Positions 23,377 through 55,608 of a stretch of 64,000 bases of DNA are shown one piece after another. The notes beneath the pieces were generated by a model that was not told the origin of the DNA, did no database searches, and worked only from the letters and a program-made list of their open reading frames with translations. Within the stretch, counting starts at the first letter, position 1, and every line of letters begins with the position of its first letter. The stretch is from the sequence record NC_041936.1; one strand, given 5' to 3'. This DNA is from Escherichia phage ECD7. The position numbers and the translations under genes were made by a program.

Positions 23377-23377
23377 A

Positions 23378-24665: not shown

Positions 24666-24913
24666 GCTGCCCCCATTGGTTTGATAGTAACAGAATCTAA
24701 AAGACCTTTGTTAGCCAGTTCGCGGCAAGTTTTCAGATCCGTAACTTCCCAGCCAGCCGCAATCAGGTTATCAATGAGGCTGTTAGCAACTTCCTCGCTC
24801 ATGAAAGAGCACTGTTTGCCGATGGTGTAGCGCACACGCTGTAATTTCAGTTTACGGAAGCCTTTAACGTTCAGGTCTTTAGCGATTTTCTTTGCGGTTT
24901 CGATGTTAGCCAT
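24662..24913 (-). CDS. small hypothetical protein (83 aa)
   Basis: first ORF behind the promoter at 24954-24982. Confidence 0.5.
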   Translation of the reverse strand: MANIETAKKIAKDLNVKGFRKLKLQRVRYTIGKQCSFMSEEVANSLIDNLIAAGWEVTDLKTCRELANKGLLDSVTIKPMGAA

Positions 24914-24953
24914 TGTTTGATTCTCCTAAGTGGTATCTCGTCTTGATGGTTGT

Positions 24954-24982
24954 ATTGTAGGGGAGTTATCCTCCCCTGTCAA
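24954..24982 (-). promoter_or_regulatory. sigma70-like early promoter with palindromic spacer
   Basis: minus TTGACA - 17 nt (GGGGAGGATAACTCCCC) - TACAAT. Confidence 0.55.
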
Positions 24983-24996
24983 CACTTTTTATAAAA

Positions 24997-25164
24997 TTAT
25001 TTGTTAATTTCTGGTGCGTTGCTCGGATAGTAACCTTCTTTAACGCCCAGGTATTTCGCAACCATCCCTACAATCTTCTGTGCTACTACAATGTCAAATT
25101 TCAGATAATCTTCGCCGTGGGTTTCAATGATATATGCTTCACATGCTGCTTTAGTCTCGAACAT
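24997..25164 (-). CDS. small protein (55 aa), paralog of 28255-28422
   Basis: MFETKAACEAYIIETHGEDYLKFDIVVAQKI...; 50/55 residues identical to the second copy. Confidence 0.5.
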   Translation of the reverse strand: MFETKAACEAYIIETHGEDYLKFDIVVAQKIVGMVAKYLGVKEGYYPSNAPEINK

Positions 25165-25197
25165 TTTGATTCTCCTATTTCGTTTCGGTATGGGTGT

Positions 25198-25227
25198 ATT
25201 ATAGGGGATCTCCCGATCCCCGTCAAC
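25198..25227 (-). promoter_or_regulatory. sigma70-like early promoter with palindromic spacer
   Basis: minus TTGACG - GGGATCGGGAGATCCCC - TATAAT. Confidence 0.6.
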
Positions 25228-25240
25228 AACTTTTTTAAAA

Positions 25241-25522
25241 TTATTCGTGATTAGTTTCGATGTTGTGCATTTTGCACCAGTTCAGCCAATCGCCCAGATC
25301 TTGATAGTTGATGCTTTTATCTGCTGCCATCGTTTTTGTCTTGATACCCATATGTGCGTTATGAGTAAGCATTTTTACAGTGAACTCAATTTTATCGCCT
25401 TTAGCTTTAACATCAACCAGTTTGGTCCACTGGCTACCAGCGCCGCGAATGTTCATGCCAACGATGTTTCCGATGTATGCTTCTTTGTTTTTCAGGATTT
25501 CGGTTGCTTTGATGAATTTCAT
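25241..25522 (-). CDS. small hypothetical protein (93 aa)
   Basis: ORF with its own promoter. Confidence 0.5.
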   Translation of the reverse strand: MKFIKATEILKNKEAYIGNIVGMNIRGAGSQWTKLVDVKAKGDKIEFTVKMLTHNAHMGIKTKTMAADKSINYQDLGDWLNWCKMHNIETNHE

Positions 25523-25555
25523 TTTTGATTCTCCAGTTCGTTTCGGTATGGGTGT

Positions 25556-25584
25556 ATTATGCTATGTTCTTACTTTGGTGTCAA
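25556..25584 (-). promoter_or_regulatory. sigma70-like early promoter (no palindrome)
   Basis: minus TTGACA - 17 nt - CATAAT. Confidence 0.5.
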
Positions 25585-25591
25585 CAACTTT

Positions 25592-25861
25592 TTAGATATT
25601 TTCAGAAATAAATTTTAAAACTTGACGTAAATGTTTCTCATCTTTGATAGTCGCCGGAAGTTCTTCTTTTACTTCCTGTGCAAGATAGATATTTCCGTTC
25701 CAAGTGAAAGATCCGTCTTCGTTTACGCGATAGCTGAACATCCACTCGCAATCATTTTCGATTTCATATACACACAGAAGGGTGTAATCGTTAAAGCTAT
25801 TGATTTCAAGGTCGAAGCCGTGACGTTTTGCAAAGTTGGTAGTGGTTTTAGTCAGTGCCAT
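25592..25861 (-). CDS. small hypothetical protein (89 aa)
   Basis: ORF with its own promoter. Confidence 0.5.
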   Translation of the reverse strand: MALTKTTTNFAKRHGFDLEINSFNDYTLLCVYEIENDCEWMFSYRVNEDGSFTWNGNIYLAQEVKEELPATIKDEKHLRQVLKFISENI

Positions 25862-25901
25862 TGTTTGATTCTCCTAAGTGGTATCTAGTTTCGATGGGTG
25901 T

Positions 25902-25930
25902 ATTATGCTATACACAGGATCTGGTGTCAA
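25902..25930 (-). promoter_or_regulatory. sigma70-like early promoter
   Basis: minus TTGACA - 17 nt - CATAAT. Confidence 0.5.
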
Positions 25931-25954
25931 TGCCTTTTTTAAAATTTTATGCAA

Positions 25955-25980
25955 TAAAAAAGCCGACGCTATGGTCGGCT
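25955..25980 (-). terminator. rho-independent terminator
   Basis: AGCCGAC/GTCGGCT hairpin with A-run on plus. Confidence 0.55.
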
Positions 25981-25987
25981 AATAAAA

Positions 25988-26296
25988 TCATTTAGACAAA
26001 TAATCATTCTGTGCAATCCGGTCGGCGTATGCTGGTGTTATGTCAATCGCCAGCACTTTAACGCGTGCTTTCTTGCGACCTGGGTTTTCTCGTAACCAGT
26101 GCTCATGACCGTGAATATTTTTATACTGCGATGCTTCTTCGAAGGTACGGATCGGACCTGGGTAATCAGCGTAAAGGATCTCTAGATCTTCGGTGATGTA
26201 AAAATATACATCGTAATTGCTGTTCTCTAGCTTAAGCAGAGACTTTCGGAACATTGGGAGATTTTCGCGGGTAAATTCAAAGATATTATCTTTCAT
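25988..26296 (-). CDS. HxHW-family small protein, member 1 (102 aa)
   Basis: YDVYFYITEDLEI...HGHEHWL...KVLAIDI; shares the family motif with five paralogs. Confidence 0.55.
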   Translation of the reverse strand: MKDNIFEFTRENLPMFRKSLLKLENSNYDVYFYITEDLEILYADYPGPIRTFEEASQYKNIHGHEHWLRENPGRKKARVKVLAIDITPAYADRIAQNDYLSK

Positions 26297-26319
26297 AGTA
26301 TTATCCTCAATAGTTGGAT

Positions 26320-26340
26320 GAAAAGGGGCGTTAACGCCCC
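26320..26340 (-). terminator. GC hairpin (terminator or attenuator)
   Basis: GGGGCG-TTAA-CGCCCC between two same-strand genes. Confidence 0.4.
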
Positions 26341-26346
26341 CATATA

Positions 26347-26634
26347 TTAAAACAGTCCTTCCTGTACACCGTAGTAGAGTTCGTCGCTGATAATTTCATT
26401 AATGCGACGGTGTGCATATTCCTGATTTGCGAAGTTGTCAGCAAGTTCTACTTTAGTTTCGCCGTCATGAGTCCATTTAGTGATAACTTTACCATCTGCA
26501 AATTTGAAGTTGAACTCTTTAGCTACTGCATCGCGTACCAGACGTGCAAACTTATTGTTGCGGATTGCATTGTCGGTTTCGTGTGCAGCGTGAGCAAATT
26601 TGTTAACTTTCAGAGTGATAGTGATGTATGCCAT
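26347..26634 (-). CDS. small hypothetical protein (95 aa), paralog of 29640-29951
   Basis: shared segment AKEFNxK. Confidence 0.5.
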   Translation of the reverse strand: MAYITITLKVNKFAHAAHETDNAIRNNKFARLVRDAVAKEFNFKFADGKVITKWTHDGETKVELADNFANQEYAHRRINEIISDELYYGVQEGLF

Positions 26635-26680
26635 AATTTGATTCTCCTAGTTAGAAAGTGTATCTCGTTTCGATGGGGAT

Positions 26681-26709
26681 ATTATGCTATACCCCCGATC
26701 TGGTGTCAA
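26681..26709 (-). promoter_or_regulatory. sigma70-like early promoter
   Basis: minus TTGACA - 17 nt - CATAAT. Confidence 0.5.
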
Positions 26710-26715
26710 CACTTT

Positions 26716-26994
26716 TTATAAAATAATTTTTTGATATTTTTCTATGATGTTCGTGTAAGTCACATCAACCGCTAGCACCGTTGCTTCGAATCCACCGTTT
26801 AGCCAATGGCTATGATCATGGTCGTGAAAGAAACCTAGTCCAGTACGAAGACCTTCTTTATATTCTGCGCGTACATTCAGTTTGTCGTCGATAAACAGAT
26901 AAAACCATGAATTTTTACTAGGATTGATGATACAACCTTTCAGATTAGGGAGAATATCACGACTAAGAATAAATTTATCACCTACTTTGAACAT
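26716..26994 (-). CDS. HxHW-family small protein, member 2
   Basis: WFYLFIDDKLNV...HDHDHSHWL...VLAVDV; start set at ATG with RBS (the track start is GTG). Confidence 0.55.
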   Translation of the reverse strand: MFKVGDKFILSRDILPNLKGCIINPSKNSWFYLFIDDKLNVRAEYKEGLRTGLGFFHDHDHSHWLNGGFEATVLAVDVTYTNIIEKYQKIIL

Positions 26995-26998
26995 AATA

Positions 26999-27319
26999 TT
27001 AGTCCTCACTTATAAGGTCAAACCAATTGTTTTTCGCATAATGCTTAATGCGTGCTTGATCTGCTTCCGCTGGTGATAGATTCCATGCAACCACTACAAC
27101 TTCTGACGCATCGTCATCAGTTTCTGATACCCAATGATTGTGATTCATACAGTTATTTGCTATCGAGTGAGCAAATGATTTCATCACTGGAGACGTATAA
27201 TCATAGTAACGGATTTTCAGATTTTCATCAACATACAAATAGATCGTATAAGGTTTATATTCAGTAACCAGTAACAGACAGTTACGCAATTCTGGGAAAA
27301 TCTTTTTAGTTAATTTCAT
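26999..27319 (-). CDS. HxHW-family small protein, member 3 (106 aa)
   Basis: YTIYLYVDENLKI...NHNHWV...VVVAWNL. Confidence 0.5.
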   Translation of the reverse strand: MKLTKKIFPELRNCLLLVTEYKPYTIYLYVDENLKIRYYDYTSPVMKSFAHSIANNCMNHNHWVSETDDDASEVVVVAWNLSPAEADQARIKHYAKNNWFDLISED

Positions 27320-27521
27320 ATTCTAGTTCTCCGTAATACACAGTAATCCATTTTTCTTCATACTTTGTATCTTTCCAGCACACAACCCCGTTTACTGTGC
27401 AATCTTTGGAATTGACGAATGATTCATATTGTTCTGCATCTTCCATCATTTCATGAGCGGTCTTTTCATCGAATATATCGCAGATCGCTTTATATGCTCG
27501 ATAATCTTTAAATTTGCTCAT
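27306..27521 (-). CDS. small protein MSKFKDY..., tandem paralog a
   Basis: N-terminus MSKFKDYRAY shared with the adjacent gene. Confidence 0.45.
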   Translation of the reverse strand: MSKFKDYRAYKAICDIFDEKTAHEMMEDAEQYESFVNSKDCTVNGVVCWKDTKYEEKWITVYYGELEYEIN

Positions 27522-27523
27522 AA

Positions 27524-27733
27524 TTAACACCACTCAAGAGTTTTTGAAAACACATCTATCCATTGTTGAGTATATGCGGTTTCTTTCCATGATACAATAC
27601 CAGTCGAATAATGGTTTTTGTTTCCAGAAAAGGACGGGCATTTTGATGCATCTTCCATCATCTTTTCGGCGAACTCTGGTGCGTATACTCGCAAGATCTG
27701 TTGATATGCTTTGTAGTCTTTAAATTTGCTCAT
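27524..27733 (-). CDS. small protein MSKFKDY..., tandem paralog b (69 aa)
   Basis: N-terminus MSKFKDYKAY; W...W.....W pattern shared. Confidence 0.45.
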   Translation of the reverse strand: MSKFKDYKAYQQILRVYAPEFAEKMMEDASKCPSFSGNKNHYSTGIVSWKETAYTQQWIDVFSKTLEWC

Positions 27734-27998
27734 AATCGTTAACTACCTTATCAGCTTCTTTTATTGTTTTTACATCAACTGCGATAATACGTAAAGGTTC
27801 GTCGAAGGTCCACCAATGATCGTGAATATCAGCTTGTGATTTATCACCAAAGGAATCACGAATATCATTTTTACATTTATAGCTAATGTGACCGTTATAG
27901 TCAACATAAAGGTAATTATCGAAAATCGGCGTTTTTAAGATCATACCGAAAAATCTTTCTTTGTGTGTCTTATCCAGCGTTGCAGTAATTCGCATCAT
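27720..27998 (-). CDS. HxHW-family small protein, member 4 (92 aa)
   Basis: NYLYVDYNGHI...HDHWW...IIAVDV. Confidence 0.55.
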   Translation of the reverse strand: MMRITATLDKTHKERFFGMILKTPIFDNYLYVDYNGHISYKCKNDIRDSFGDKSQADIHDHWWTFDEPLRIIAVDVKTIKEADKVVNDYEQI

Positions 27999-28010
27999 AA
28001 TATATTCCTC

Positions 28011-28190
28011 TTAGAAAGGGATGGTCATTTCTTGAGCTTGTACATTCTCGTTAGGATTAAACTTCATCCAACCGATATTGTCTACCAGCATATACACATT
28101 TTTATCATATCCTACGTGAGTAGTCAACACTAAATGTGCTTTACCTTCAACGATGATTTCCATGTACTTCTGAACTTCGATAGCTTTCAT
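28011..28190 (-). CDS. small hypothetical protein (59 aa)
   Basis: ATG with GGAGA RBS; below the track cutoff. Confidence 0.35.
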   Translation of the reverse strand: MKAIEVQKYMEIIVEGKAHLVLTTHVGYDKNVYMLVDNIGWMKFNPNENVQAQEMTIPF

Positions 28191-28222
28191 TTTGATTCTC
28201 CGTTTGTTGTCTTGATGGGAGT

Positions 28223-28251
28223 ATCTTACTACTCCCTTTAATCATTGTCAA
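28223..28251 (-). promoter_or_regulatory. promoter-like element with conserved stem-loop (weak -10 TAAGAT)
   Basis: minus TTGACA - 17 nt - TAAGAT overlapping the GGGAGTAGTAAGATACTCCC palindrome; 30 bp identical to 63911-63940. Confidence 0.4.
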
Positions 28252-28254
28252 CGA

Positions 28255-28422
28255 TTATTTGTTAATTTCCGGTGCGTTGCTTGGATAGTAACCTTCTTTA
28301 ACACCCAGATATTTTGCAACCATTCCGGTGATCTTCTGTGCCACTACGATATCGAATTTCAGGTAGTCTTCACCGTGGGTTGCTACAATGTATGCTTCGC
28401 ATTCTGCTTTAGTCTGGAACAT
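28255..28422 (-). CDS. small protein (55 aa), paralog of 24997-25164
   Basis: MFQTKAECEAYIVATHGEDYLKFDIVVAQKI... Confidence 0.5.
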   Translation of the reverse strand: MFQTKAECEAYIVATHGEDYLKFDIVVAQKITGMVAKYLGVKEGYYPSNAPEINK

Positions 28423-28455
28423 TTTGATTCTCCTTTATCTCGTTGGTATGTGTGC

Positions 28456-28484
28456 ATTATAGGGGATCACCGATCCCCTGTCAA
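28456..28484 (-). promoter_or_regulatory. sigma70-like early promoter with palindromic spacer
   Basis: minus TTGACA - GGGGATCGGTGATCCCC - TATAAT. Confidence 0.6.
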
Positions 28485-28489
28485 CAACT

Positions 28490-28783
28490 TTATAATGCTT
28501 TATATGCGTATTTCATAAATTTGTCTGCCACTTCATTGGCATGTTCAGATTCTACGCCTGATTCGAGAACAATAGCTAGGTCGGTTTCGTCATTCCCGCC
28601 GTACCAATGATTTGATGTTCGATTTTTTTCAATTGGAAATTGGTCACTTTTATCTGTGCGACAAAATACATCTAAATGCTCGTCGATGTAAAAGATCCAA
28701 TCTTCATAAAGAATAACGGTATTAGCCAGATTTTTATTGCCTTCAACGAAAGGTTCGGCTACAAACAAATTAGTATGTTCCAT
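28490..28783 (-). CDS. HxHW-family small protein, member 5
   Basis: WIFYIDEHLDV...SNHWY...LAIVLE; start at internal Met with GAGGA RBS. Confidence 0.45.
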   Translation of the reverse strand: MEHTNLFVAEPFVEGNKNLANTVILYEDWIFYIDEHLDVFCRTDKSDQFPIEKNRTSNHWYGGNDETDLAIVLESGVESEHANEVADKFMKYAYKAL

Positions 28784-28799
28784 AGTAATTTCCTCAAAA

Positions 28800-28991
28800 T
28801 TATACAGCTTCGTAAACTTCCCAATGTCCAACACCAGCACGCTTAACGAAAAGGTTTTCTTTGATGTTATTCATAAACGTCTGGATGGATTTAATGCGGT
28901 TTGAAGGTTTCCATTCTTCGTTGGCATTGCGTCGATACATCATAACATTACCAGTTCGCTTATATTCAGCAACCATTTTAAGACCACACAT
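28800..28991 (-). CDS. small hypothetical protein (63 aa)
   Basis: ORF in the early cluster. Confidence 0.4.
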   Translation of the reverse strand: MCGLKMVAEYKRTGNVMMYRRNANEEWKPSNRIKSIQTFMNNIKENLFVKRAGVGHWEVYEAV

Positions 28992-29048
28992 AATATTATC
29001 CTCAATTTGCGGGAGAGTATTACCCCTCCCAATGATTGTTATGTTATA

Positions 29049-29369
29049 TCACACAAAATGGCGTGTCAATGCTTCTTTTGCGGTTCCGCTAAGACTTTCG
29101 ATCTCGCCTGGCATAACATCAACCGCCAGAACTTCTACAACATCCTCGGACCCTAACCAGTGAGTATGGCCTTTGTAGAACTTGATAACCAGACTACCTT
29201 CCTCGTCCCATTTAACGCTATCGCTAGCCCACCACACATCACCGTCGATAAAGTTGATGTAAAGCACACTACGCAACATTGAATTAATTACTTTCAATAC
29301 TGCGCCTTTCATCTCTTCCACGGTATGGTCTTCCATTTTGAAGACCATACCTACCTGAACTTTTGCCAT
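29049..29369 (-). CDS. HxHW-family small protein, member 6 (106 aa)
   Basis: VLYINFIDGDV...GHTHWL...VLAVDV. Confidence 0.55.
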   Translation of the reverse strand: MAKVQVGMVFKMEDHTVEEMKGAVLKVINSMLRSVLYINFIDGDVWWASDSVKWDEEGSLVIKFYKGHTHWLGSEDVVEVLAVDVMPGEIESLSGTAKEALTRHFV

Positions 29370-29386
29370 TTAGTCACCTCTCTTTA

Positions 29387-29566
29387 TTACATAACAATCA
29401 CGCCAGCCGTTGAAAGTTGATGTTTCAACTGAGCATTTTCTGCTACCGTCAAATCAATGATTTCTTGTGACGCTGCAATCATATATCCATTGGTGATATT
29501 GTTTTGCATCAGTTCAATGGTTTCTTCGTTGTAGCGGATTTTAGCGATGATTTCGTTGAAGTTCAT
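29387..29566 (-). CDS. small hypothetical protein (59 aa)
   Basis: ATG with GGAGAATC RBS-like context; below the track cutoff. Confidence 0.35.
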   Translation of the reverse strand: MNFNEIIAKIRYNEETIELMQNNITNGYMIAASQEIIDLTVAENAQLKHQLSTAGVIVM

Positions 29567-29600
29567 GATTGATTCTCCTAGTTCGTTTCGGTATGTGTGT

Positions 29601-29630
29601 AGTATAGGGGATCTCCCGATCCCCTGTCAA
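29601..29630 (-). promoter_or_regulatory. sigma70-like early promoter with palindromic spacer
   Basis: minus TTGACA - GGGGATCGGGAGATCCCC - TATACT. Confidence 0.55.
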
Positions 29631-29639
29631 CAACTTTTT

Positions 29640-29951
29640 TTAAAGTTTTTCCATGATAACGGTCATAATTACATCTTCTGCGCGAGCGGTCAGATTATCA
29701 GCGTCAGCATGTGGGCGGTTGGTTGTTACAGAGATAACACCGTTGCGCACTGGTTTGATATTGATATCAAGATGATCCGCGAAACGTTCGCCAGTTACAG
29801 AATGAATTTTGGTGTTAAATTCTTTTGCCAGTGCCTTGCGAACTTCACGAATCAGGGTAGCGTTTTTCAGTTGGTTCTCCGCGCTCATGGTCTTCTGGGT
29901 GTTCATGGTTCCGTCGAAGTCAATCATTGGCAGCGTTACGATGTATTTCAT
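29640..29951 (-). CDS. small hypothetical protein (103 aa), paralog of 26347-26634
   Basis: shared AKEFNTK segment. Confidence 0.5.
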   Translation of the reverse strand: MKYIVTLPMIDFDGTMNTQKTMSAENQLKNATLIREVRKALAKEFNTKIHSVTGERFADHLDINIKPVRNGVISVTTNRPHADADNLTARAEDVIMTVIMEKL

Positions 29952-29996
29952 TTTTGATTCTCCGTTTAAGAAAGTGTGTTTCGTTTTGATGTGTGT

Positions 29997-30025
29997 AGTA
30001 TAGGGGATACGTGATCCCCTGTCAA
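29997..30025 (-). promoter_or_regulatory. sigma70-like early promoter with palindromic spacer
   Basis: minus TTGACA - GGGGATCACGTATCCCC - TATACT. Confidence 0.55.
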
Positions 30026-30038: not shown

Positions 30039-30515
30039 TTATTTTTCTTGATGCTCGCGCTCGTACTTTTCGAAATAAAATTCTACTGGCTGGTCATGAA
30101 TTGACAGCAAGCCAAAGCGTTTAGCCGCTCGCAATCCCATATTGCGCTGAATGTACTTCTGGAAGTTCTCGCGTATACACTTACGCCAGTATTCTAAGCC
30201 CATACAGCTTTTATAAAGATTGCATTGTACACACGCCGGATTCATGTTATCAAGTATATCATGTTCCGGTTTATGCATTCCTACAACCTTATACTTCCAC
30301 GACCCATCATCATTACGGGCAATTCGTCCATTTTCATCATAGACTACCTTTGAGCGTCGCAATACTGGTTTGATATGGTCTGCGTGCCAGCGATCCCCTA
30401 GTTCCTCGCCACAATAGGCACAACGCCCACCGTATTTCATTTTCAGGATCTGGCGTTGCTCTTTCTTTGACAATTTTTTAGGTTTAGGGGCTTTCGCCCC
30501 TTCATTATCACACAT
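30039..30515 (-). CDS. HNH endonuclease (158 aa)
   Basis: CAYCGEELGDRWHADHIKP ... CVQCNLYK HNH zinc-finger nuclease motif; overlaps the 3' end of ligase by 8 nt. Confidence 0.65.
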   Translation of the reverse strand: MCDNEGAKAPKPKKLSKKEQRQILKMKYGGRCAYCGEELGDRWHADHIKPVLRRSKVVYDENGRIARNDDGSWKYKVVGMHKPEHDILDNMNPACVQCNLYKSCMGLEYWRKCIRENFQKYIQRNMGLRAAKRFGLLSIHDQPVEFYFEKYEREHQEK

Positions 30516-38003: not shown

Positions 38004-38030
38004 ACAACAAAGGCGGGATTTCTCCCGCCC
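38004..38030 (-). terminator. rho-independent terminator
   Basis: GGCGGGA/TCCCGCC hairpin with A-rich run on plus. Confidence 0.5.
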
Positions 38031-41270: not shown

Positions 41271-41302
41271 AATAAAATCCTCACTTGTTTTTGATGGTTG
41301 TA

Positions 41303-41330
41303 TTATAGCGGGGATTTCTCCCCGCGTCAA
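41303..41330 (-). promoter_or_regulatory. sigma70-like promoter with palindromic spacer
   Basis: minus TTGACG - GCGGGGAGAAATCCCCGC - TATAAT. Confidence 0.55.
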
Positions 41331-41338: not shown

Positions 41339-43582
41339 TTACAGCTTGCAAGATGAGCACTCGCTAGCGTCTTCCGTACCATCAGCACCATCACGCACGT
41401 TAGCGTAATACAGTGTCTTGAGGCCGTAATATTGAGCAAACAACATATCATCTAATACATCAGCAATATCGACTTTACCAGTCTTATAAGTGCTTGGATC
41501 GTAGGATGTGTTGGAACTAATCGCCTGATCTACAAACTTCTGCATGATCGCTGCCAGTGTCAGATAAGGCTTGTTACCTTTCTTGATCAGTGTCCAAAGC
41601 AGGTCAATAACATCAGCATTATTCTCTACGTTCGGAATAACCTGATTAAATTGCCCTTCTTTCGATCCTTTAACCGATACAATCCCGCGAGGCGGTTCAA
41701 TACCGTTTGTGCTGTTAGACACCTGAGAGGACGACTCACAAGGCATCAGCGCCGAAAGCGTACTGTTACGAATGCCATATTTTTTCAGGTCTTCGCGAAG
41801 TTCTTCCCAATCCATCTCATACACAGGATCAACCAGTTCATCTACTGTCTTTTTGTACCAGTCGATAGGCAGTTCACCGCGACCATAACGTGTTTCGTGC
41901 ATCAGTTCGCAAGCACCCTTCTCTTTAGCCAGTTGTACACTAGCCTTAATCAGAGCATATTGCAAGCGTTCAAACGTTTTATGCGTAAACTCGTTAGCGT
42001 CTTCATATGTGAAGAAATTATCCGCCAGATATGATGCAAAGTTAGTCACACCAACACCCAGAGAGCGACGTTTTTTGGCTGTCAGAGCTTGTTCTACAGG
42101 ATAATCCTGGTAATCTAACAGGTTGTCAAGTGCACGCACCATAACCATAGCAATGCGTTCTACTTCTTCCATATTTTCGATATCAAAGTTTCCTAAAACA
42201 TATGCTGCCAAAGTACATAGGCTGATCTCTGAATCATCACGACCCATCGGTTTTGTTGGCAGAGCAATTTCACAACACAGGTTAGATTGTTTAATCGGTG
42301 CTACATTACGAATAAACGCCCCGTGATTGTTCATGTTGTCTGTGAACGCTGGATAGATTCGACCAGTGTTAAAACGTTCAATTGCCACCGCTAAAAACAG
42401 GTCTTCGGCTTTAACACGAGTTTTACGAACACTCGGATCTTTTTCCAGTTTTTCGTAAAGCTGGCGGAAACCTTCCTCATCTCGGAAGTACAGATCCCAC
42501 AACAAGCCACCTGCAACATCTGGACTAAACAGAGTAATGTAATCCCGTTTGAGGAATCGCTCTACCATCAGGTTATTAATCTGTACGCCGTAATCAAGAT
42601 GACGAATGCGGTTATCTTCTACCCCTTTGTTGTTCTTCAACACAATCAGACTTTCAAACTCTAAATGCCACATTGGGTAATAGAGAGTCGCCGCCCCGCC
42701 ACGAATACCGCCTTGTGAACATGACTTAACGGCAGTCTGAAAATGTTTCCAGAATGGGATAACGCCAGTATGACGAACTTCACCATGCCCGATCTTAGAT
42801 CCTTCCGCACGAATCATGCCAGCGTTGATACCGATGCCAGCACGCTTGCTAATATACTTGATGATTGCATTTGCGGTTTCATTAATACCCTGCAATGAAT
42901 CATCAGATTCGATCACCACACACGAACTAAATTGGCGTGTTGGGGTACGCACACCAGCCATAATCGGAGTAGGCAGAGAAATTTGCTTATTAGCAACAGC
43001 ATTATAAAAATCAATCACATGTTCAAGTCGATTTTCTGTCTCTTCTTGATGTAAGCACATACCGATCAGCATATACGCAAATTGCGGTGTTTCAATGATT
43101 TTCTTAGTGCTGCGATCCTGAACAAGATATTTCTCTTTTAACTGCATCGCACCAGCATAGGTCATTTTAAAATCAAGTTTATGGTCGATGAATTTCTCCA
43201 GATATTCCACTTCTTCACGGGAATACTTTTGCAGAATTTCGCGATCATATTTTCCGGTTGCAATATTACGCTCAATATGGCTATAAAAATCAATAGGTTG
43301 GAATTGACCGTATACTGATTTACGAAGCGCGAACATTGCAAGGTTACTTGCTACATATTGATAATCAGGTGTTTCTACAGTAATGTTATCTGCGGCGACC
43401 TTAATCAATACTTTCTGGATATCATTGGTAGACATACCTTCTGTCAGAAGTGGTTCAACCATATCAAATAATTCATATGGGTCAACGTTATGACCTTCGG
43501 CTGCCGCTTCCAGAATTTTCATTACTTTTTCTTTTTCAAACGGAACAGTCAGACCGGAAGACTTAACAACATTTTTAATCAT
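41339..43582 (-). CDS. nrdA: ribonucleotide reductase large subunit
   Basis: 747 aa; ATP-cone N-terminus; catalytic region NLCCEIALP; C-terminal CSSCKL-type redox tail. Confidence 0.9.
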   Translation of the reverse strand: MIKNVVKSSGLTVPFEKEKVMKILEAAAEGHNVDPYELFDMVEPLLTEGMSTNDIQKVLIKVAADNITVETPDYQYVASNLAMFALRKSVYGQFQPIDFYSHIERNIATGKYDREILQKYSREEVEYLEKFIDHKLDFKMTYAGAMQLKEKYLVQDRSTKKIIETPQFAYMLIGMCLHQEETENRLEHVIDFYNAVANKQISLPTPIMAGVRTPTRQFSSCVVIESDDSLQGINETANAIIKYISKRAGIGINAGMIRAEGSKIGHGEVRHTGVIPFWKHFQTAVKSCSQGGIRGGAATLYYPMWHLEFESLIVLKNNKGVEDNRIRHLDYGVQINNLMVERFLKRDYITLFSPDVAGGLLWDLYFRDEEGFRQLYEKLEKDPSVRKTRVKAEDLFLAVAIERFNTGRIYPAFTDNMNNHGAFIRNVAPIKQSNLCCEIALPTKPMGRDDSEISLCTLAAYVLGNFDIENMEEVERIAMVMVRALDNLLDYQDYPVEQALTAKKRRSLGVGVTNFASYLADNFFTYEDANEFTHKTFERLQYALIKASVQLAKEKGACELMHETRYGRGELPIDWYKKTVDELVDPVYEMDWEELREDLKKYGIRNSTLSALMPCESSSQVSNSTNGIEPPRGIVSVKGSKEGQFNQVIPNVENNADVIDLLWTLIKKGNKPYLTLAAIMQKFVDQAISSNTSYDPSTYKTGKVDIADVLDDMLFAQYYGLKTLYYANVRDGADGTEDASECSSCKL

Positions 43583-43649
43583 ATTACCTCACTTCATATT
43601 TTAGCAGGAACAAGTTTATCCTCCATAACGGGGCTTTCGCCCCCTTTGT

Positions 43650-44882
43650 TTATACTGCCATTTGAGCGGTGATCGCTGGATGGCTTTGATAGTTGTGAAT
43701 TTTAAAGTCTTTCGGAGTCTTTGTCAATACCTCATCTAAAGATTTAAATTCCGGCAACTCAATTGTTGGTTTATCAAACGGAACACGGTTTAACTGTTCC
43801 ATAACTTGATCAAAATGGTTTTTGTAAATGTGAGTATCTCCGCCGGAGAAAATCAGTTCACCAACTTCAAGGTCGCACATTTTCGCTATGATGTGAGTTA
43901 ACAGCGCATAGCTGGCGACGTTAAAGGGCAAGCCCAAAAAGCTGTCTACGCTTCTCTGAAACCACATGCAAGATAGTTTACCTTCATTGACGTAGAATTG
44001 CACGAAAGGATGACATACACCTAATACAGCATTATGTGTTCCTTGTACGTTCCATGAGTCAATAATGATCCGGCGATCCGTTGGATTGTTTTTAATTTGT
44101 TCAATCACGTTTTGTAACTGGTCTTCCCAAATCTTCGGGCGATAGACATATTCTTCATCGTCTTTAGTGCTCGATGTGTCTACGTCCATACTAGCAAAGA
44201 TCGTGGTATCTGGTGCTAAAATATCCCCACCCAGATAATCACTATCAAGCAGATAACCGAAATAACCATCATCTACCCATTCCTGGAATCCCCACAAGCA
44301 ATATGCATCATTAACAAAATTAGATTGAGTCTTCCAGTGGTCTGCTACTAAGAATAGATTATATTCAGAATCAAACTCTTCATAACGCATACCACGCCAG
44401 ATAGCACATAAACGGTCTTCTGTTTCATTGGTTGGCGTAAAGTCTTCTACCCACGGGTGCTTAAATGTATGTGTATATTTGCTCTTAACGCGCTTAATTT
44501 TGACTTCCCCGTGTGGATGAATCGGTTTGCGTCGCCACGCCATACCATACATATTGCCAACATTATAGCCGTTGAATCGTAGCGGATTCTTTTCTTTCAT
44601 ATCAAGACAGTTGCCGCGCCAAATGTCGAAGGCTTCTTCGTCAAACCGACCGCGTGTAATTTCCTGTAAGCGACGGCGGTCAAGTGATCCCTCCATAAAC
44701 CATAGCAACTCGCCAATTACAGAGGCTGTAGCCATCTTTTTAGTGGTCAGTAATGGGAAACCCTTGCTTAAATCAATTCGCATCTCTGCGCCGAATTTAG
44801 AGAGCGTACCTACCCCCGTGCGGTCTTCACGAGGCCAGCCATTATCAAGAACATCACGCAACAGTTTCAAATATTCTTTCAT
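43650..44882 (-). CDS. td: thymidylate synthase with large internal insertion
   Basis: DRTGVGT, LLWF, RRIIIDSWN, VCHPF, QRSVDSFLGLPFNVASYALLTH and C-terminus PKDF..NY.SHP....MAV match TS/T4 Td; about 120 extra residues between MAWRRK and DQLQN. Confidence 0.85.
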   Translation of the reverse strand: MKEYLKLLRDVLDNGWPREDRTGVGTLSKFGAEMRIDLSKGFPLLTTKKMATASVIGELLWFMEGSLDRRRLQEITRGRFDEEAFDIWRGNCLDMKEKNPLRFNGYNVGNMYGMAWRRKPIHPHGEVKIKRVKSKYTHTFKHPWVEDFTPTNETEDRLCAIWRGMRYEEFDSEYNLFLVADHWKTQSNFVNDAYCLWGFQEWVDDGYFGYLLDSDYLGGDILAPDTTIFASMDVDTSSTKDDEEYVYRPKIWEDQLQNVIEQIKNNPTDRRIIIDSWNVQGTHNAVLGVCHPFVQFYVNEGKLSCMWFQRSVDSFLGLPFNVASYALLTHIIAKMCDLEVGELIFSGGDTHIYKNHFDQVMEQLNRVPFDKPTIELPEFKSLDEVLTKTPKDFKIHNYQSHPAITAQMAV

Positions 44883-46610: not shown

Positions 46611-46636
46611 TAAAAAAGCCTCCCCGAAGGGAGGCT
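46611..46636 (-). terminator. rho-independent terminator downstream of gene 32
   Basis: AGCCTCCC-TTCG-GGGAGGCT hairpin followed by a U-run on minus. Confidence 0.7.
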
Positions 46637-53600: not shown

Positions 53601-54436
53601 TGAAAAACTCCTGGTCTATTATCGTTGGTGGTACTGGAACGGCGCAAGCAGTTAATAGTGGCGCTATCGCTTTCGGTCAAATCAATGATGGTGGAGTCGT
53701 CGAGCATTACGCCTTTGCTATGGAACACACTGGCGACGCGACAGCATATAGAAACTTAATGGCAGGTCGTAACCTGTATGCAAAACAAGGCGGTTTATAC
53801 ATTGTTGACCTGTCTAATCCGGCAATGACTCGTTCCTCAGATGGTATGCTGAATATCGGTCACGGTGGAAGTGTTAACATCAAGGCAGGTCATCAAACGT
53901 TAACTACAGAGATCGCCGGACAGAAATATCAGATCGTACACGCAGGAAACGCCGACGAAGTTCTTAACCGTCGGTTTGTTAAGAATGCTGGCGATACAAT
54001 GGTCGGTAAGCTGACTATGGATAATGCGCCTATTGTTTCTGTTAAGCATGAAGCTAGCGCGGCAACCGCTCCGGCAATCGGTAACATCGGTTTCTGGAAT
54101 ATGCGAGTTACTACCCAGAACATCAAAGAAACTTATCCAGAGAAGAAAAACGGTACTCTGATGCAATGGGGTACTGACGCGGACGGGCTTACCCAGCTTT
54201 GGTCCCCTGATGGTACTCATAAACATTATATCCGTTCCGGTACTGGTGGTCAATGGACCGCATGGGGTGAAATTTACACCAAACAGAATAAGCCTACCGC
54301 TCAGGAAATCGGGGCAGTTGTTGCAGAAGGTGGTTTAATGAACTCTATGACGGTTCGTGATTGGATCAAAGTTGGTAATGTTAAAATCATCGCCAATAAT
54401 CTGACTCGTACCGTAGACTTTATCTGGGAAGACTAA
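50696..54436 (+). CDS. 34: long tail fibre proximal subunit gp34
   Basis: 1246 aa; GDTITVKDIGGKCGVNEL, FPKRSEYP, RRGIARIATQAET, ISTPLKIKT and C-terminus NVKIIANNLTRTVDFIWED colinear with recalled T4 gp34. Confidence 0.9.
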   Translation: MADFSQHFKATFGFDAGNEKVVNVALADKNVNTDAVNVEFFNYHNGITQYDTTRGYDQYGTTIYQNRPYYAKEDITKPAGDFDPTKWQALRTDPRWDYIAATSGDTPLQSGDYIAADGQFANLTFSMPTKPAEGDTITVKDIGGKCGVNELSFLSSGHEFYHNGNVYNRKWYCTTPYAMNYFIFVRNRWHVYQTGTEPRGVYAQPAIDAIQMQNGDQVFRRSSLGNITLVLPKFANNGDMIQTTDLDGLTATNHVTVKVHEHAEEQSIGTSGLKEIIGKRSGHGVFIFDKTENLWRLWDGDQSVRLKPIIDDTRLQPNSYVAVFGDRDVTLTLPTNVEPGDRIQVSMQYMHGNQTCRIITSEEDTKILMQKNMVQFPKRSEYPFNGTDTWTGVSELSFNAANDYVPYLEFSYSEGDDGKKYWLVAHAHPIVERVDPTRKDRVGVIALATQTETNKNHEENPSDEVAVTPKMLANKTANETRRGIARIATQAETHQDTGSNFLDDVIVTPKKLNDCVATEARRGVMEIATQHETNEGLDDTRAITPKKLEERRASEDLAGIAEIVQVGGSAAARRGEAGTGIYNINDHAKIVTPKNINEVKATETSRGVGYLATDAEVQGATESTPQDALLITTRTLTKRTATESRTGIAEIATQEETNLGQSDNHIITPKKLHTRRATETLHGLAEIATQPEFDAGLDDARISTPLKIKTFFENAQRLKVDPTQGLNLTGDLWQGIMIRGLDATEDTKGVAKVATTQLTDAGQDDTTIITPKKLQGKKATEGKEGIIRVGTQAETVAGTLANVAISPKNFKYVVQTEDTWKATEARRGFLKVATQENCFVGDNLQGSTQELGNYQHDGIAVTPKGLNYALANFLPKMATAQNSLKLGNVEAAKWARRDIDQTIESNYTFNKNVNVKGDLECLKSGSFETLYVTKNSTDDPSNGHLVLGERGVDGHTGITLHGTTASEGMKNSWSIIVGGTGTAQAVNSGAIAFGQINDGGVVEHYAFAMEHTGDATAYRNLMAGRNLYAKQGGLYIVDLSNPAMTRSSDGMLNIGHGGSVNIKAGHQTLTTEIAGQKYQIVHAGNADEVLNRRFVKNAGDTMVGKLTMDNAPIVSVKHEASAATAPAIGNIGFWNMRVTTQNIKETYPEKKNGTLMQWGTDADGLTQLWSPDGTHKHYIRSGTGGQWTAWGEIYTKQNKPTAQEIGAVVAEGGLMNSMTVRDWIKVGNVKIIANNLTRTVDFIWED

Positions 54437-54468
54437 TTAAAGGGGGCGAAAGCCCCTATGGGGTTATT

Positions 54469-55608
54469 ATGACACAAGATATAGAATTACGCAATACTGG
54501 AATTAGGTTTGCGCATTTCGACGAAGACTCTGCGACATTTACCAGCATTTCAGAAAATAACTCTGTGATGTATAAGCTGGAAGTGCGCGGATCTAATGCG
54601 GATTCTACCAAACCAGCAAGGATTAGATTTAATGGAGTGGAGATCGTTGGCACTGGCTATGAAAATGGCCTAAATTTTAAAGTTCTTACTCCAACTGGAC
54701 AACTACACGAAGAAAAGGTATTCTATGGTCGCGGTGCTGTTTTGGCAATGCGTGATTATCTTTCTTTGCTGAAAGGTGACTATATCATTGCGATGGCAAC
54801 GCATGGAGAATTGTTTGCAGATCCGATAAGTGATGATGTATTTTCTAAGCTGGGATCTGTATCATTCCCGAATCACATTTTGTTACAGCAAATGCCTCGT
54901 GTATCATATGCAGCAATTTATTCTACTAAAATGGGTAAAATTGTGTGCGAAGGTATGCAAGCGACCCACGGGGAAGGACAAGATTCATCTATACAAATTG
55001 AGAAAGTCTATGATACTATAGATGATCTTGCTATAACAGGAACACCACAACGATTTTTAGATTATCCGGTTGAGTATGTTAGCGAAGATGCCGAACATTT
55101 CGAGCTAATACAATGGCCTCACGATGAGATCAGCGCCCCACTTGAGGATTTTAACATAAAGGCAGGTGACAAACTATCAATATCCTTTGAATTGTTCCGT
55201 GATAGTGCCGCAGCCGCAGCCAACGTAACAGCGCGTTTCTATCACAACTACTTCACCGATGGACAATATCAAACTGGTGTTCGATACAATGCCAGCAAAA
55301 AAGACCAATGGGAAAAGTTTGAAGCCGTCTATACCGTACCGGAAGGAGTTGATAGTGTAGTAACTGGTTGTATCAGATATCCAACCAACTCAAGTGAAGG
55401 TATTGTTAAAATTAGAAACATACTAATAACGCCGATCAGTGGAGTCGTCAAAACTACTGGTCCTACTTCATTTGGTGTTAATGGTGTTAGAACAACTCAT
55501 ATTCAGGATAACGGTGATTTTACTAACCCTGTAATGAGTCTTCTTAAACTGCCTAGAGATAATAAACACATCACATCCAACAACTTTAAAGAGTTCGATG
55601 TTGATTAA
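54469..55608 (+). CDS. 35: long tail fibre hinge connector gp35
   Basis: 379 aa directly after gp34 (T4 gp35 is 372 aa). Confidence 0.7.
   Translation: MTQDIELRNTGIRFAHFDEDSATFTSISENNSVMYKLEVRGSNADSTKPARIRFNGVEIVGTGYENGLNFKVLTPTGQLHEEKVFYGRGAVLAMRDYLSLLKGDYIIAMATHGELFADPISDDVFSKLGSVSFPNHILLQQMPRVSYAAIYSTKMGKIVCEGMQATHGEGQDSSIQIEKVYDTIDDLAITGTPQRFLDYPVEYVSEDAEHFELIQWPHDEISAPLEDFNIKAGDKLSISFELFRDSAAAAANVTARFYHNYFTDGQYQTGVRYNASKKDQWEKFEAVYTVPEGVDSVVTGCIRYPTNSSEGIVKIRNILITPISGVVKTTGPTSFGVNGVRTTHIQDNGDFTNPVMSLLKLPRDNKHITSNNFKEFDVD

What the first reader, a model, noticed from the sequence alone, without database searches (positions are those of the whole stretch)
43611..43649. GC stem-loop between td and nrdA without a U-tract on the coding strand
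The GGGGC-TTTC-GCCCC hairpin lies in the 67 nt gap between td and nrdA. On the minus (coding) strand it is not followed by a U-run, so it is unlikely to terminate transcription. It could be an RNA processing or stability element regulating the td/nrdA expression ratio.
Basis: seen in the sequence. Interest (0 to 1): 0.2.

Follow-up and report, generated by a model that had tools for sequence, protein, structure and literature searches.

The report
Recurrent GNRA hairpin after td gene
The GC stem-loop between the thymidylate synthase and ribonucleotide reductase genes of this RB49-like phage is real, but it is an ordinary copy of a hairpin the phage places after several genes, most likely a leaky terminator or mRNA-end protector.

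Summary
The hairpin is real. On the mRNA (minus) strand it reads GGGGC-GAAA-GCCCC at 43630-43643, 6 nt after the td stop, in the 67-nt td-nrdA gap, and no U-run follows it.

It is not specific to td/nrdA. The window comes from a Krischvirus (RB49-like). The identical 14-mer occurs three times in the window, always on the sense strand, 6-7 nt after a stop codon and without a sense-strand U-tract.

Relatives keep a hairpin at this locus but change its sequence:
- stems of 5-8 bp;
- E26 versus Makalu_001 differ by a G-C to U-A compensatory pair;
- the loop is GAAA or GGAA, always GNRA on the sense strand.

In Pseudotevenvirus the same hairpin carries a UUUCUU tail, making it a canonical terminator. 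In phage 011D4 a methylase cassette is inserted between two copies of the hairpin. It resembles the GC stem-loop component of the PeSL cassettes described for RB49/phi1.

Five nt downstream lies GGAGGAUAAAC, a 10/11 match to the RegB/S1 cleavage consensus.

Best reading: a sense-strand RNA hairpin that terminates poorly and protects td-proximal 3' ends, possibly after RegB cleavage, and that also marks a cassette recombination junction. Function is inferred, not shown. Interest is low.

The parts
43630..43643 (-). Core stem-loop. On the mRNA it is GGGGC-GAAA-GCCCC: 5 G-C pairs closing a C(GAAA)G GNRA tetraloop. It begins 6 nt after the td stop codon.
   Evidence: Sequence. Present in MFE and centroid folds. 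Exact-motif count.
43624..43648 (-). Extended helix predicted in this window's variant: CAAA.GGGGC...GCCCC.UU.UG, with flanking A-U pairs and a G.G mismatch. Most relatives instead have a clean 6-7 bp GGGGGC/GCCCCC stem.
   Evidence: Fold of the 33-nt segment, -13.1 kcal/mol. Variants.
43614..43624 (-). GGAGGAUAAAC, 5 nt 3' of the stem. It looks like an orphan Shine-Dalgarno motif and matches 10 of 11 positions of the RegB/S1 target consensus GGAGRAYARAA. No ATG follows at start-codon distance; a TTG lies 6 nt downstream.
   Evidence: Consensus scan: 14 sites with at most 1 mismatch against 3.8 expected. This is the only one of the 11 minus-strand sites not followed by an ATG at start-codon distance. 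Consensus from PMC1702504. Present in all 10 sampled Krischvirus sequences that lack nrdA.1, the window included.
43650..43652 (-). td stop codon TAA. The linker ACAAAG (43644-43649) separates it from the stem. Read on the + strand, the linker and stop codon are the U-rich tail CTTTGTTTA.
43580..43590 (-). nrdA translation start: SD GAGG at 43587-43590 and ATG at 43580-43582.
   Evidence: Identical in all relatives.
43699..43727 (-). Sigma-70-type promoter match TTGACA-17-TAAAAT (11/12) inside the 3' end of td, pointing at nrdA. If active, the hairpin lies about 50 nt into the leader of an nrdA-specific transcript.
   Evidence: There are 28 sites at 11/12 or better in the window against 2.4 expected, 27 of them on the minus strand. 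Activity was not tested.
30487..30500 (-). Second exact copy of GGGGCGAAAGCCCC on the sense strand. It lies 7 nt after the DNA ligase stop codon and inside codons 5-9 of the overlapping HNH endonuclease ORF. No U-tract follows.
   Evidence: Gene names from the RB49 annotation.
54443..54456 (+). Third exact copy on the sense strand. It lies 6 nt after the gp34 stop and 12 nt before the ATG of the next tail-fibre gene. No U-tract follows.
41302..41330 (-). Canonical PeSL immediately after the nrdA stop: TTGACG, then the stem-loop GCGGGGA-GAAA-UCCCCGC, then TATAAT. Its stem-loop is the type that replaces the td-nrdA hairpin in E26/Makalu-type relatives.
   Evidence: PeSL definition from PMC2839356.

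Best explanation
The element is one copy of a recurrent RNA hairpin that this RB49-like phage places just downstream of stop codons. It has a GC stem and a GNRA tetraloop and acts on the sense strand. It resembles the stem-loop (SLS) component of the promoter/stem-loop cassettes (PeSLs) described for RB49 and phi1. It is the same hairpin that serves as a canonical A-tract/hairpin/U-tract terminator after td in Pseudotevenvirus.

In Krischvirus the U-tract is missing, so E. coli RNA polymerase should mostly read through into nrdA. The hairpin then works post-transcriptionally. It forms on td-containing transcripts and blocks 3'-to-5' exonucleases once the RNA is cut downstream. The most likely cut site is the RegB-type GGAGGAUAAAC 5 nt away. 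This would uncouple the decay of td mRNA from that of nrdA mRNA. Some weak pausing or termination is also possible.

At the DNA level the same 20-nt sequence acts as a homology patch where gene cassettes (nrdA.1, a methylase) are gained and lost.

Shown here: the structure, its recurrence, its orientation, its variation among relatives, and the cassette junctions. Inferred: read-through, RegB cleavage and exonuclease protection.
For: 1. Recurrence. There are three exact copies in the window, all on the sense strand, 6-7 nt after a stop codon, with no sense-strand U-tract.

2. Sense-strand RNA selection. All six GAAA or UUCG tetraloop GC-hairpins in the window read as stable tetraloops on the local mRNA strand. 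The sense fold is -13.1 kcal/mol and the antisense fold -10.2.

3. Structure kept while sequence changes.
- RB49: GGGGGC-GAAA-GCCCCC.
- KFS-EC: 7 bp.
- E26: GGCGGGGA-GAAA-UCCCCGCC.
- Makalu_001: UGCGGGGA-GGAA-UCCCCGCA. The outer pair changes G-C to U-A and the loop is still GNRA.

4. No sampled Krischvirus variant has a proper sense-strand U-tract; the nearest is 011D4's td-side copy (AUUUAUGAGG). Four Pseudotevenvirus genomes have AAAGGGGC-GAAA-GCCCCUUUCUU.

5. The same 18-mer is found in at least 120 IMG/VR contigs. About 52% are followed by at least 5 T in 8 nt, so it is a generic terminator hairpin.

6. GGAGGAUAAAC matches 10/11 of GGAGRAYARAA (consensus in PMC1702504). RB49 encodes an active RegB (PMC3014915).

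7. Cassette junctions. 011D4 carries an N6_N4 methylase cassette bounded by two copies of the hairpin. E26 and Makalu carry an nrdA.1/DUF4326 gene directly after a different GNRA hairpin.

8. The PeSL papers describe GC (polyG/polyC) stem-loops as attenuators and recombination points in RB49/phi1.
Against: - There is no transcript 3'-end, RegB-cleavage or half-life data for any Krischvirus, so function is inferred.
- The Krischvirus genomes are 93-99% identical here. Conservation of the orphan GGAG motif is therefore weak evidence.
- The GGAG is predicted to pair weakly with a downstream UCCUGC, and RegB is inhibited by secondary structure (PMC1702504).
- The other two copies of the hairpin have no GGAG after them, and one sits in a late operon where RegB is not expected to act. 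RegB therefore cannot be the general partner of this hairpin.
- Tevenvirinae (T4, RB69, Karamvirus and a Klebsiella phage) have no hairpin directly after td, so it is dispensable for td/nrdA expression in general.
- The hairpin could be a neutral relic of a terminator whose U-tract was lost during cassette turnover.
Confidence: 0.5

Rival explanations
1. It is a leaky intrinsic terminator or pause site on the coding strand. It attenuates read-through from the frd-td unit, and nrdA is then fed mainly by the sigma-70-type promoter inside the td 3' end.
For: - ARNOLD-based annotation in phage G37-3 calls it a minus-strand terminator at -13.6 kcal/mol.
- The identical hairpin in Pseudotevenvirus has a UUUCUU tail and is annotated as a terminator.
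- Most IMG/VR instances of the 18-mer are followed by T-runs.
- The stem-loop of one RB49/phi1 PeSL (PeSL211/210) cut reporter expression about as strongly as the rrnB T1 terminator (PMC2839356).
- T4 mobE has a weak terminator (30-50%) with a short U-tract (PMC2790892).
- There is an 11/12 promoter match at 43727-43699 just upstream.
Against: - The tail is GUUAUGG in the window and AAUAUGG in RB49. That is 3 U in 7 in the window and 2 in 7 in RB49, and none directly follows the stem.
- The consensus scan does not call it a terminator on the minus strand.
- A proper U-tract is absent from every Krischvirus variant, including the replaced E26-type hairpins; the nearest is AUUUAUGAGG in 011D4's td-side copy.
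- E. coli RNAP needs a U-tract for efficient intrinsic termination (established knowledge).
Confidence: 0.2
2. It is mainly a DNA-level homology patch, or a neutral relic. Under this view it is a generic terminator hairpin that lost its U-tract when cassettes were inserted or deleted beside it. It persists because it is short and recombinogenic, and it has no RNA function at this locus.
For: - Indels among relatives lie exactly at the 3' edge of the hairpin. The 011D4 methylase cassette is flanked by two copies, and nrdA.1 is present in E26/Makalu and absent in RB49-type genomes.
- PeSL mini-circle crossovers were mapped within stem-loops (PMC2839356).
- G and C run lengths vary freely between genomes: G5-G7 and C4-C6, plus an ELT4 insertion.
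Against: - The loop stays GNRA on the sense strand through a sequence replacement (GAAA, GGAA).
- The stem is maintained by a compensatory G-C to U-A change between E26 and Makalu_001.
- Tetraloop orientation is 6/6 on the sense strand in the window. A purely DNA-level element would not care about strand.
Confidence: 0.15
3. It is a terminator for + strand (antisense) transcription. Read on the + strand it is GGGGC-UUUC-GCCCC followed by CUUUGUUUAU, and it would end an RNA antisense to the nrdA 5' region.
For: - The scan calls it terminator-like only on the + strand.
- The Makalu_001 record annotates its version on the + strand.
- The A-rich linker (A)CAAAG is kept in Krischvirus, Pseudotevenvirus and the 011D4 second copy.
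- A weak + strand promoter match (9/12) lies at 43336-43365.
Against: - All annotated genes from RB49p193 to p247 are on the minus strand.
- No TATAAATA late promoter occurs on either strand between 38 and 48 kb.
- The 9/12 promoter match is at chance level: 20 found against 16.6 expected.
- The UUUC loop is not a stabilising tetraloop, and the antisense fold is 3 kcal/mol weaker.
- Part of the + strand tail is simply the td stop and last codons.
Confidence: 0.07

Closest known systems
Stem-loop (SLS) component of PeSL cassettes of RB49/phi1 (Arbiol, Comeau et al. 2010, PMC2839356; Comeau et al. 2014, PMC4122927)
   Same: - Same phage group.
- GC-rich polyG/polyC stem-loop in an intergenic spacer that ends with an SD and an ATG.
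- Proposed attenuator role.
- Sits at insertion/deletion junctions between relatives.
- A canonical PeSL with a GAAA-loop stem lies 2.3 kb away, just after nrdA (41302-41330).
   Different: - No sigma-70 promoter or AT-rich UP region inside the spacer. The nearest strong promoter match is 55 nt upstream, inside td.
- It lies between conserved nucleotide-metabolism genes, not in a hyperplastic ORFan region.
- The paper does not mention td or nrdA.
Canonical intrinsic terminator after td in Pseudotevenvirus (RB16, RB43, Margaery, GuL6, EC-W2)
   Same: Identical 32-35 nt from the last td codons through the hairpin in Margaery/RB16 (RB43, GuL6 and EC-W2 differ slightly in the A-rich linker) (ATGGCAGTATAAACAAAGGGGGCGAAAGCCCC). 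Same position between td and nrdA.
   Different: Pseudotevenvirus continues with UUUCUUAAC, and the flanking AAA/UUU extends the stem to 8 bp. The window continues with GUUAUGGAGG.
Weak internal terminator of T4 mobE in the nrdA-nrdB region (Wilson and Edgell 2009, PMC2790892)
   Same: A hairpin in the nrd gene neighbourhood of a T4-type phage that lets most transcription through and tunes downstream expression. The ligase/HNH copy of the present hairpin likewise sits in the 5' end of an HNH endonuclease ORF.
   Different: The mobE terminator has a short poly(U) tract and mapped 3' ends, with 30-50% termination. Nothing has been mapped here and there is no U-tract.
Stable tetraloop hairpins in T4 intercistronic regions, and intercistronic 3'-protective stem-loops of bacterial operons such as REP in malE-malF (cited from memory, not checked here)
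   Same: An extra-stable tetraloop hairpin between cistrons of a polycistronic mRNA. The expected effect is a barrier to 3' exonucleases and differential stability of upstream and downstream segments.
   Different: No decay data exist for this element. Its sequence is unrelated to REP.
RegB/S1 cleavage sites of T4-type early mRNAs (Durand et al. 2006, PMC1702504)
   Same: Intergenic GGAG followed by an A-rich tract, with a 10/11 match to GGAGRAYARAA. G at positions 4 and 5 favours cleavage. RB49 has a regB gene.
   Different: It is not the SD of an annotated gene. It is predicted to be weakly paired. Cleavage has not been tested. RB49 RegB is divergent from the T4 enzyme.

Membership tests
Intrinsic (Rho-independent) terminator, coding strand | GC-rich stem-loop just downstream of a gene | tested here: met
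   5 G-C pairs with a GAAA loop, 6 nt after the td stop. Fold energy -13.1 kcal/mol.
Intrinsic (Rho-independent) terminator, coding strand | U-rich tract immediately 3' of the stem | tested here: not met
   The tail is GUUAUGGAGG. The scan lists the site on the + strand only. No sampled Krischvirus variant has a proper U-tract; the nearest is 011D4's td-side copy, AUUUAUGAGG.
Intrinsic (Rho-independent) terminator, coding strand | Transcript 3' ends map to the tail | not testable with these tools
   No transcript-end data are available for RB49-type phages.
PeSL (promoter-early stem-loop) cassette of RB49/phi1 | GC-rich (polyG/polyC) stem-loop in an intergenic spacer ending in SD + ATG | tested here: met
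   Definition in PMC2839356.
PeSL (promoter-early stem-loop) cassette of RB49/phi1 | Consensus sigma-70 promoter with an AT-rich upstream region in the same intergenic cassette, with the stem-loop within or next to the -35/-10 boxes | tested here: not met
   No promoter match lies in 43583-43649. The 11/12 match at 43727-43699 is inside td, its -10 is 55 nt from the stem, and it lacks the aaaaagttg UP-like flank seen at true PeSLs in the window.
PeSL (promoter-early stem-loop) cassette of RB49/phi1 | Marks insertion/deletion/replacement junctions between close relatives | tested here: met
   In 011D4 a methylase cassette sits between two hairpin copies. nrdA.1 is present or absent right after the hairpin in different relatives.
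GNRA-tetraloop RNA hairpin | 4-nt loop G-N-R-A on the transcribed strand, closed by a Watson-Crick pair | tested here: met
   C(GAAA)G on the minus strand. Makalu_001 has A(GGAA)U.
RegB/S1 endoribonuclease target site | [quoted passage not shown] | tested here: met
   GGAGGAUAAAC at 43614-43624 matches 10/11; only position 11 differs (consensus).
RegB/S1 endoribonuclease target site | Target is single-stranded | tested here: inconclusive
   The MFE fold pairs GGAGGA weakly with UCCUGC, about 5 pairs with a 9-nt loop. It is unpaired in the short-segment folds.
RegB/S1 endoribonuclease target site | The phage encodes RegB and the site is cut in vivo on early transcripts | not tested
   regB is reported for RB49 (PMC3014915). 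I did not locate regB in this window or genome. Cleavage cannot be tested here.
Any curated Rfam RNA family | Covariance-model match | tested here: not met
   Across 43300-44000 on both strands at E up to 10, only three chance-level hits appeared, none over the hairpin.

The most novel reading that the evidence does not exclude
The hairpin and the orphan GGAGGAUAAAC motif together form a dedicated processing module. RegB, with ribosomal protein S1, cuts 7 nt 3' of the stem. This leaves td mRNA capped by a GNRA hairpin and releases nrdA mRNA with a new 5' end. One polycistronic early transcript would then yield two mRNAs with different lifetimes. The same hairpin would be a portable '3' cap' that travels with gene cassettes such as the 011D4 methylase.
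Probability: 0.2. Interest if true: 0.4.

Novelty: new member of a known kind. Interest (0 to 1): 0.2.

Why it matters
The practical consequence is for annotation. Terminator predictors disagree about this site. ARNOLD calls it a minus-strand terminator in G37-3, another pipeline calls it a plus-strand terminator in Makalu_001, and a consensus scan calls it plus-strand only. The comparative picture shows it is a sense-strand hairpin that has lost its U-tract.

If the hairpin-plus-RegB-site reading were confirmed, it would give a simple, testable example of how T4-type phages set different lifetimes for neighbouring cistrons of the nucleotide-synthesis operon. It would also show how a 20-nt hairpin doubles as a recombination patch outside the hyperplastic regions. 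None of this would overturn current understanding.

Tried and rejected
- Rfam scan of 43300-44000 at a permissive threshold: nothing over the hairpin.
- Promoter inside the spacer: no acceptable -35/-10 pair was found by scan or by eye.
- Late promoter. TATAAACA overlaps the td stop and is a 7/8 match to TATAAATA. It would start transcription inside the 5' arm of the stem, and it is absent from E26 (GTCTAACA). No exact TATAAATA lies within 38-48 kb. Rejected. Some marine IMG/VR contigs do place this same hairpin just after a TATAAATA.
- Stop-codon read-through or recoding stimulated by a hairpin 6 nt after UAA. The td frame stays open for 21 codons up to the TAA beside the nrdA ATG. In RB49-type sequences a 1-nt indel changes the frame and the extension, so it is not conserved. 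Rejected.
- Conserved small peptide. The ATG mini-ORF (MEDKLVPAKI) changes frame and length in G37-3, PHB13 and pEJ01. Rejected. The TTG mini-ORF that ends 1 nt before the nrdA ATG cannot be judged at this divergence.
- Collecting more relatives from IMG/VR with the NrdA N-terminus or with the nrdA start sequence returned a single contig.
- Formal covariation counting. MAFFT put the E26-type loops one column out of register. I described the compensatory changes directly instead of running count of structure pairs.
- The PeSL paper's supplementary list of PeSL positions is not held. I could not check whether the authors counted this site.
- A search for the source of the 011D4 methylase cassette found only distant methylase homologues in most records, with 3 records covering at least 80% of the query at 80-90% identity. 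This was not followed further.

Full report
**Observation**

Genes in this part of the window run on the minus strand. The td ORF ends with TAA at 43650-43652 and nrdA starts at ATG 43582-43580. The spacer between them is 67 nt.

On the mRNA strand the spacer reads UAA-ACAAAG-GGGGC-GAAA-GCCCC-GUUAU-GGAGGAUAAAC-UUGUUCCUGCUAAAAUAUGAAGU-GAGG-UAAU-AUG. The stem-loop occupies 43630-43643. It appears in the MFE and centroid folds of the 141-nt context.

Folded alone, the hairpin gives -13.1 kcal/mol on the sense strand and -10.2 kcal/mol on the antisense strand. No U-run follows it on the coding strand. The consensus scan calls it terminator-like only on the + strand, where the tail is CTTTGTTTAT.

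**More than chance, but not unique**

The window has 18 hits, at 13 loci, for hairpins with five G/C-only pairs. Shuffles give 2.1.

The exact 14-mer GGGGCGAAAGCCCC occurs three times, against 0.15 expected even when two mismatches are allowed. The copies are:
- 43630-43643 (-), between td and nrdA;
- 30487-30500 (-), 7 nt after the DNA ligase stop and inside the first codons of an HNH endonuclease ORF;
- 54443-54456 (+), 6 nt after the gp34 stop and 12 nt before the next tail-fibre gene.

All three lie on the local sense strand, just after a stop codon, with an A-rich 5' flank and no sense-strand U-tract. Three more GC hairpins in minus-strand gene regions have GAAA or UUCG loops when read on the sense strand: 38012-38029, 41308-41325 and 46617-46636. 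That makes six of six oriented to give a stabilising tetraloop on the mRNA.

**Identity of the genome**

The region is 96-99% identical to Krischvirus phages: Brandy 98.7%, RB49 96.7%. The RB49 annotation gives the local gene order as frd, two small ORFs, td, nrdA, three small ORFs, nrdB, all on one strand.

**Relatives at the same locus**

I read the junction in 12 other Krischvirus sequences.

| Sequence(s) | Hairpin and what follows |
|---|---|
| RB49, G37-3, JSE, one IMG/VR contig | GGGGGC-GAAA-GCCCCC, then AAUAUGGAGGAUAAA(A)C |
| Cognac | Same stem, with the window's GUUAUGG tail |
| PHB13, pEJ01, KFS-EC, ELT4 | G and C runs of varying length (5-7 bp; ELT4 has an extra insert) |
| E26 | GGCGGGGA-GAAA-UCCCCGCC, then the AGGAG Shine-Dalgarno of an inserted 100-aa gene |
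| Makalu_001 | UGCGGGGA-GGAA-UCCCCGCA, then the same inserted gene |

The inserted gene in E26 and Makalu_001 is a DUF4326 protein, 63% identical to T4 nrdA.1. Between these two, the outer stem pair changes G-C to U-A and the loop changes GAAA to GGAA. Both loops are GNRA.

Phage 011D4 has an N6_N4 DNA-methylase cassette, split into two ORFs, between td and nrdA. A copy of the hairpin lies on each side of it. The insert starts exactly at the 3' edge of the first copy and ends with the second.

No sampled Krischvirus variant has a proper U-tract on the coding strand; the nearest is AUUUAUGAGG after 011D4's td-side copy.

**Other genera**

Pseudotevenvirus (Margaery, RB16, RB43, GuL6, EC-W2 and about 50 others by BLAST) carries the same hairpin after td. 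The preceding 18 nt are identical or nearly identical in the genomes read. There it continues UUUCUUAAC, and the flanking AAA/UUU extends the stem to 8 bp. That is a textbook terminator, and it is annotated as one.

Tevenvirinae have no hairpin right after td, because small ORFs abut or overlap it. This holds for T4, RB69, a Karamvirus and a Klebsiella phage. RB69 has a hairpin plus UUGGAG plus a 6-codon mini-ORF just before nrdA. A Morganella phage has a terminator hairpin between frd and nrdA. A structured element in front of nrdA therefore recurs, but it is not homologous across the family.

**The hairpin sequence is generic**

The 18-mer AAAGGGGGCGAAAGCCCC is found in at least 120 unrelated IMG/VR contigs. 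In 66 of the 127 rows, at least 5 of the next 8 bases are T. In 35 rows at most 2 are T. It is a common phage terminator hairpin that also occurs without a tail.

The identity between Krischvirus and Pseudotevenvirus is therefore less remarkable than it first looks. The shared td-end codons and linker still argue for common descent or exchange.

**Known class**

Arbiol et al. (PMC2839356) described PeSLs in RB49 and phi1. These are sigma-70 consensus promoters combined with stable stem-loops, 'frequently polyG followed by polyC', in intergenic spacers that end in an SD and an ATG. One of the stem-loops reduced reporter expression as strongly as rrnB T1. Recombination between PeSLs creates indels and mini-circles, with crossovers mapped in the loop.

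The window is full of these elements. There are 28 promoter matches at 11/12 or better, against 2.4 expected. [quoted passage not shown] A canonical one sits directly after the nrdA stop: TTGACG-GCGGGGAGAAAUCCCCGC-TATAAT at 41330-41302.

The td-nrdA element shares the stem-loop, the SD/ATG end and the indel-junction behaviour. It lacks a promoter inside the spacer. The nearest strong match, TTGACA-17-TAAAAT at 43727-43699, lies inside td with its -10 box 55 nt upstream of the stem. I therefore do not file it as a PeSL. I file it as the stem-loop type found in PeSLs, used without a promoter. The paper does not mention td or nrdA.

**The downstream motif**

Five nt after the stem lies GGAGGAUAAAC. 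Durand et al. (PMC1702504) defined the RegB/S1 target as 11 nt of single-stranded RNA with consensus GGAGRAYARAA. It is cut between the second G and the A, in intergenic regions of early mRNAs, and G at positions 4-5 enhances cleavage. The motif here matches 10 of 11 positions.

The window has 14 sites with at most one mismatch, against 3.8 expected. Of the 11 on the minus strand, ten are the SD regions of small early ORFs, nine reading GGAGAAUCAAA and one GGAGAAUAACA, each followed within 0-3 nt by AUG. The td-nrdA site is the only one of the 11 not followed by an ATG at start-codon distance. It looks like the orphaned translation-initiation region of a lost cassette. In E26-type phages the corresponding AGGAG is the nrdA.1 SD.

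RB49 encodes a divergent but active RegB (PMC3014915). Two caveats apply. The motif is predicted to pair weakly with UCCUGC downstream, and RegB dislikes structure. The other two copies of the hairpin have no GGAG after them.

**Mechanism**

My best-supported reading is as follows. The element is a sense-strand RNA hairpin descended from, or exchanged with, an intrinsic terminator. In Krischvirus the U-tract is gone, so E. coli RNAP should mostly read through. That fits the need to express nrdA from upstream promoters, as in T4, where transcripts starting upstream of td include nrdA (PMC2790892).

The hairpin would then act after transcription as a barrier to 3' exonucleases for td-containing RNA once the transcript is cut downstream. 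The RegB-type site is the obvious candidate for that cut. Some residual pausing or termination is possible.

At the DNA level the roughly 20-nt conserved sequence is a homology patch at which cassettes are gained and lost.

Shown here: the structure, recurrence, orientation bias, compensatory variation, absence of a U-tract, the cassette junctions and the consensus match. Inferred: read-through, cleavage and protection.

Rivals, with my confidence in each:
- plain leaky terminator, 0.2;
- neutral relic or recombination patch only, 0.15;
- + strand (antisense) terminator, 0.07.

The antisense reading is weakened by four points. The region has no + strand genes. There are no late promoters nearby. 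The only + strand promoter match is at chance level. The antisense fold is weaker and has a non-special loop.

**Verdict**

The finding is real and correctly described. The element is an ordinary member of a known kind, and versions of it are already annotated as putative terminators in relatives' GenBank records. Interest is low. The only mildly new points are the hairpin's pairing with an orphan RegB-type site and the methylase cassette bracketed by two hairpin copies.

Noticed in passing
window 43650-44882 (-): The td (thymidylate synthase) ORF is 410 aa, against about 286 aa in T4 and RB69. Pfam matches it in two stretches, and residues 254-410 align to profile positions 110-266. This implies an in-frame insertion of roughly 140 aa in the middle of the enzyme. 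The same length is annotated in RB49 and other Krischvirus genomes.
   Followed up: partly
window 30487-30515 (-): A copy of the same GNRA hairpin lies 12 nt after the ATG of an HNH endonuclease ORF that overlaps the ligase stop. There it could hinder ribosome loading, which recalls the hairpins that down-regulate T4 mobE and other homing endonuclease genes.
   Followed up: no
window 54434-54471 (+): The same hairpin sits between gp34 and the next tail-fibre gene in a late operon. It is followed by UAUGGGG, whose GGGG (the likely SD) could alternatively pair with the CCCC of the 3' arm.
   Followed up: no
window 41302-41330 (-): A canonical PeSL lies right after the nrdA stop: TTGACG, the stem-loop GCGGGGA-GAAA-UCCCCGC, then TATAAT. 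nrdA is thus flanked by a promoter-less hairpin upstream and a full promoter/stem-loop cassette downstream.
   Followed up: partly
window 22849-30025 and elsewhere (-): There are 27 near-consensus sigma-70 promoters on the minus strand (28 in total against 2.4 expected). About eight carry a GGGGAUC...GAUCCCC-type stem between -35 and -10, and about ten are followed by a near-invariant leader and the SD GGAGAAUCAAA. This SD matches the RegB consensus, so many of this phage's small early genes look like RegB targets.
   Followed up: partly
L130 (phage 011D4) 1544-2411: An N6_N4 DNA methylase cassette is inserted between td and nrdA, bounded by two copies of the hairpin. The methylase is annotated as two overlapping ORFs, suggesting a frameshift. 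BLAST found mostly distant homologues; 3 records cover at least 80% of the cassette at 80-90% identity.
   Followed up: partly
L140 (RB69) 1408-1494: The RB69 nrdA leader contains a TATAAT-like box, the hairpin ACGGGAUA-AAUAC-UAUCCCGU, then UUGGAG and a 6-codon mini-ORF whose stop overlaps the nrdA SD. This layout is analogous to the window's but not homologous to it.
   Followed up: no
window 43583-43652 (-): The td reading frame stays open past its UAA for 21 codons and ends at the TAA 1 nt before the nrdA ATG. A TTG-initiated 9-codon mini-ORF lies in the same frame, 6 nt after GGAGG. A 1-nt indel in RB49-type genomes changes the td-frame extension.
   Followed up: partly
L009, L041, L062, L096, L100, L103, L118 (IMG/VR contigs): In a group of metagenomic viral contigs the same AAAGGGGGCGAAAGCCCC hairpin lies about 10 nt downstream of a T4-type late promoter TATAAATA and directly before an SD and ATG. 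It would therefore sit at the 5' end of a transcript rather than at a 3' end.
   Followed up: no
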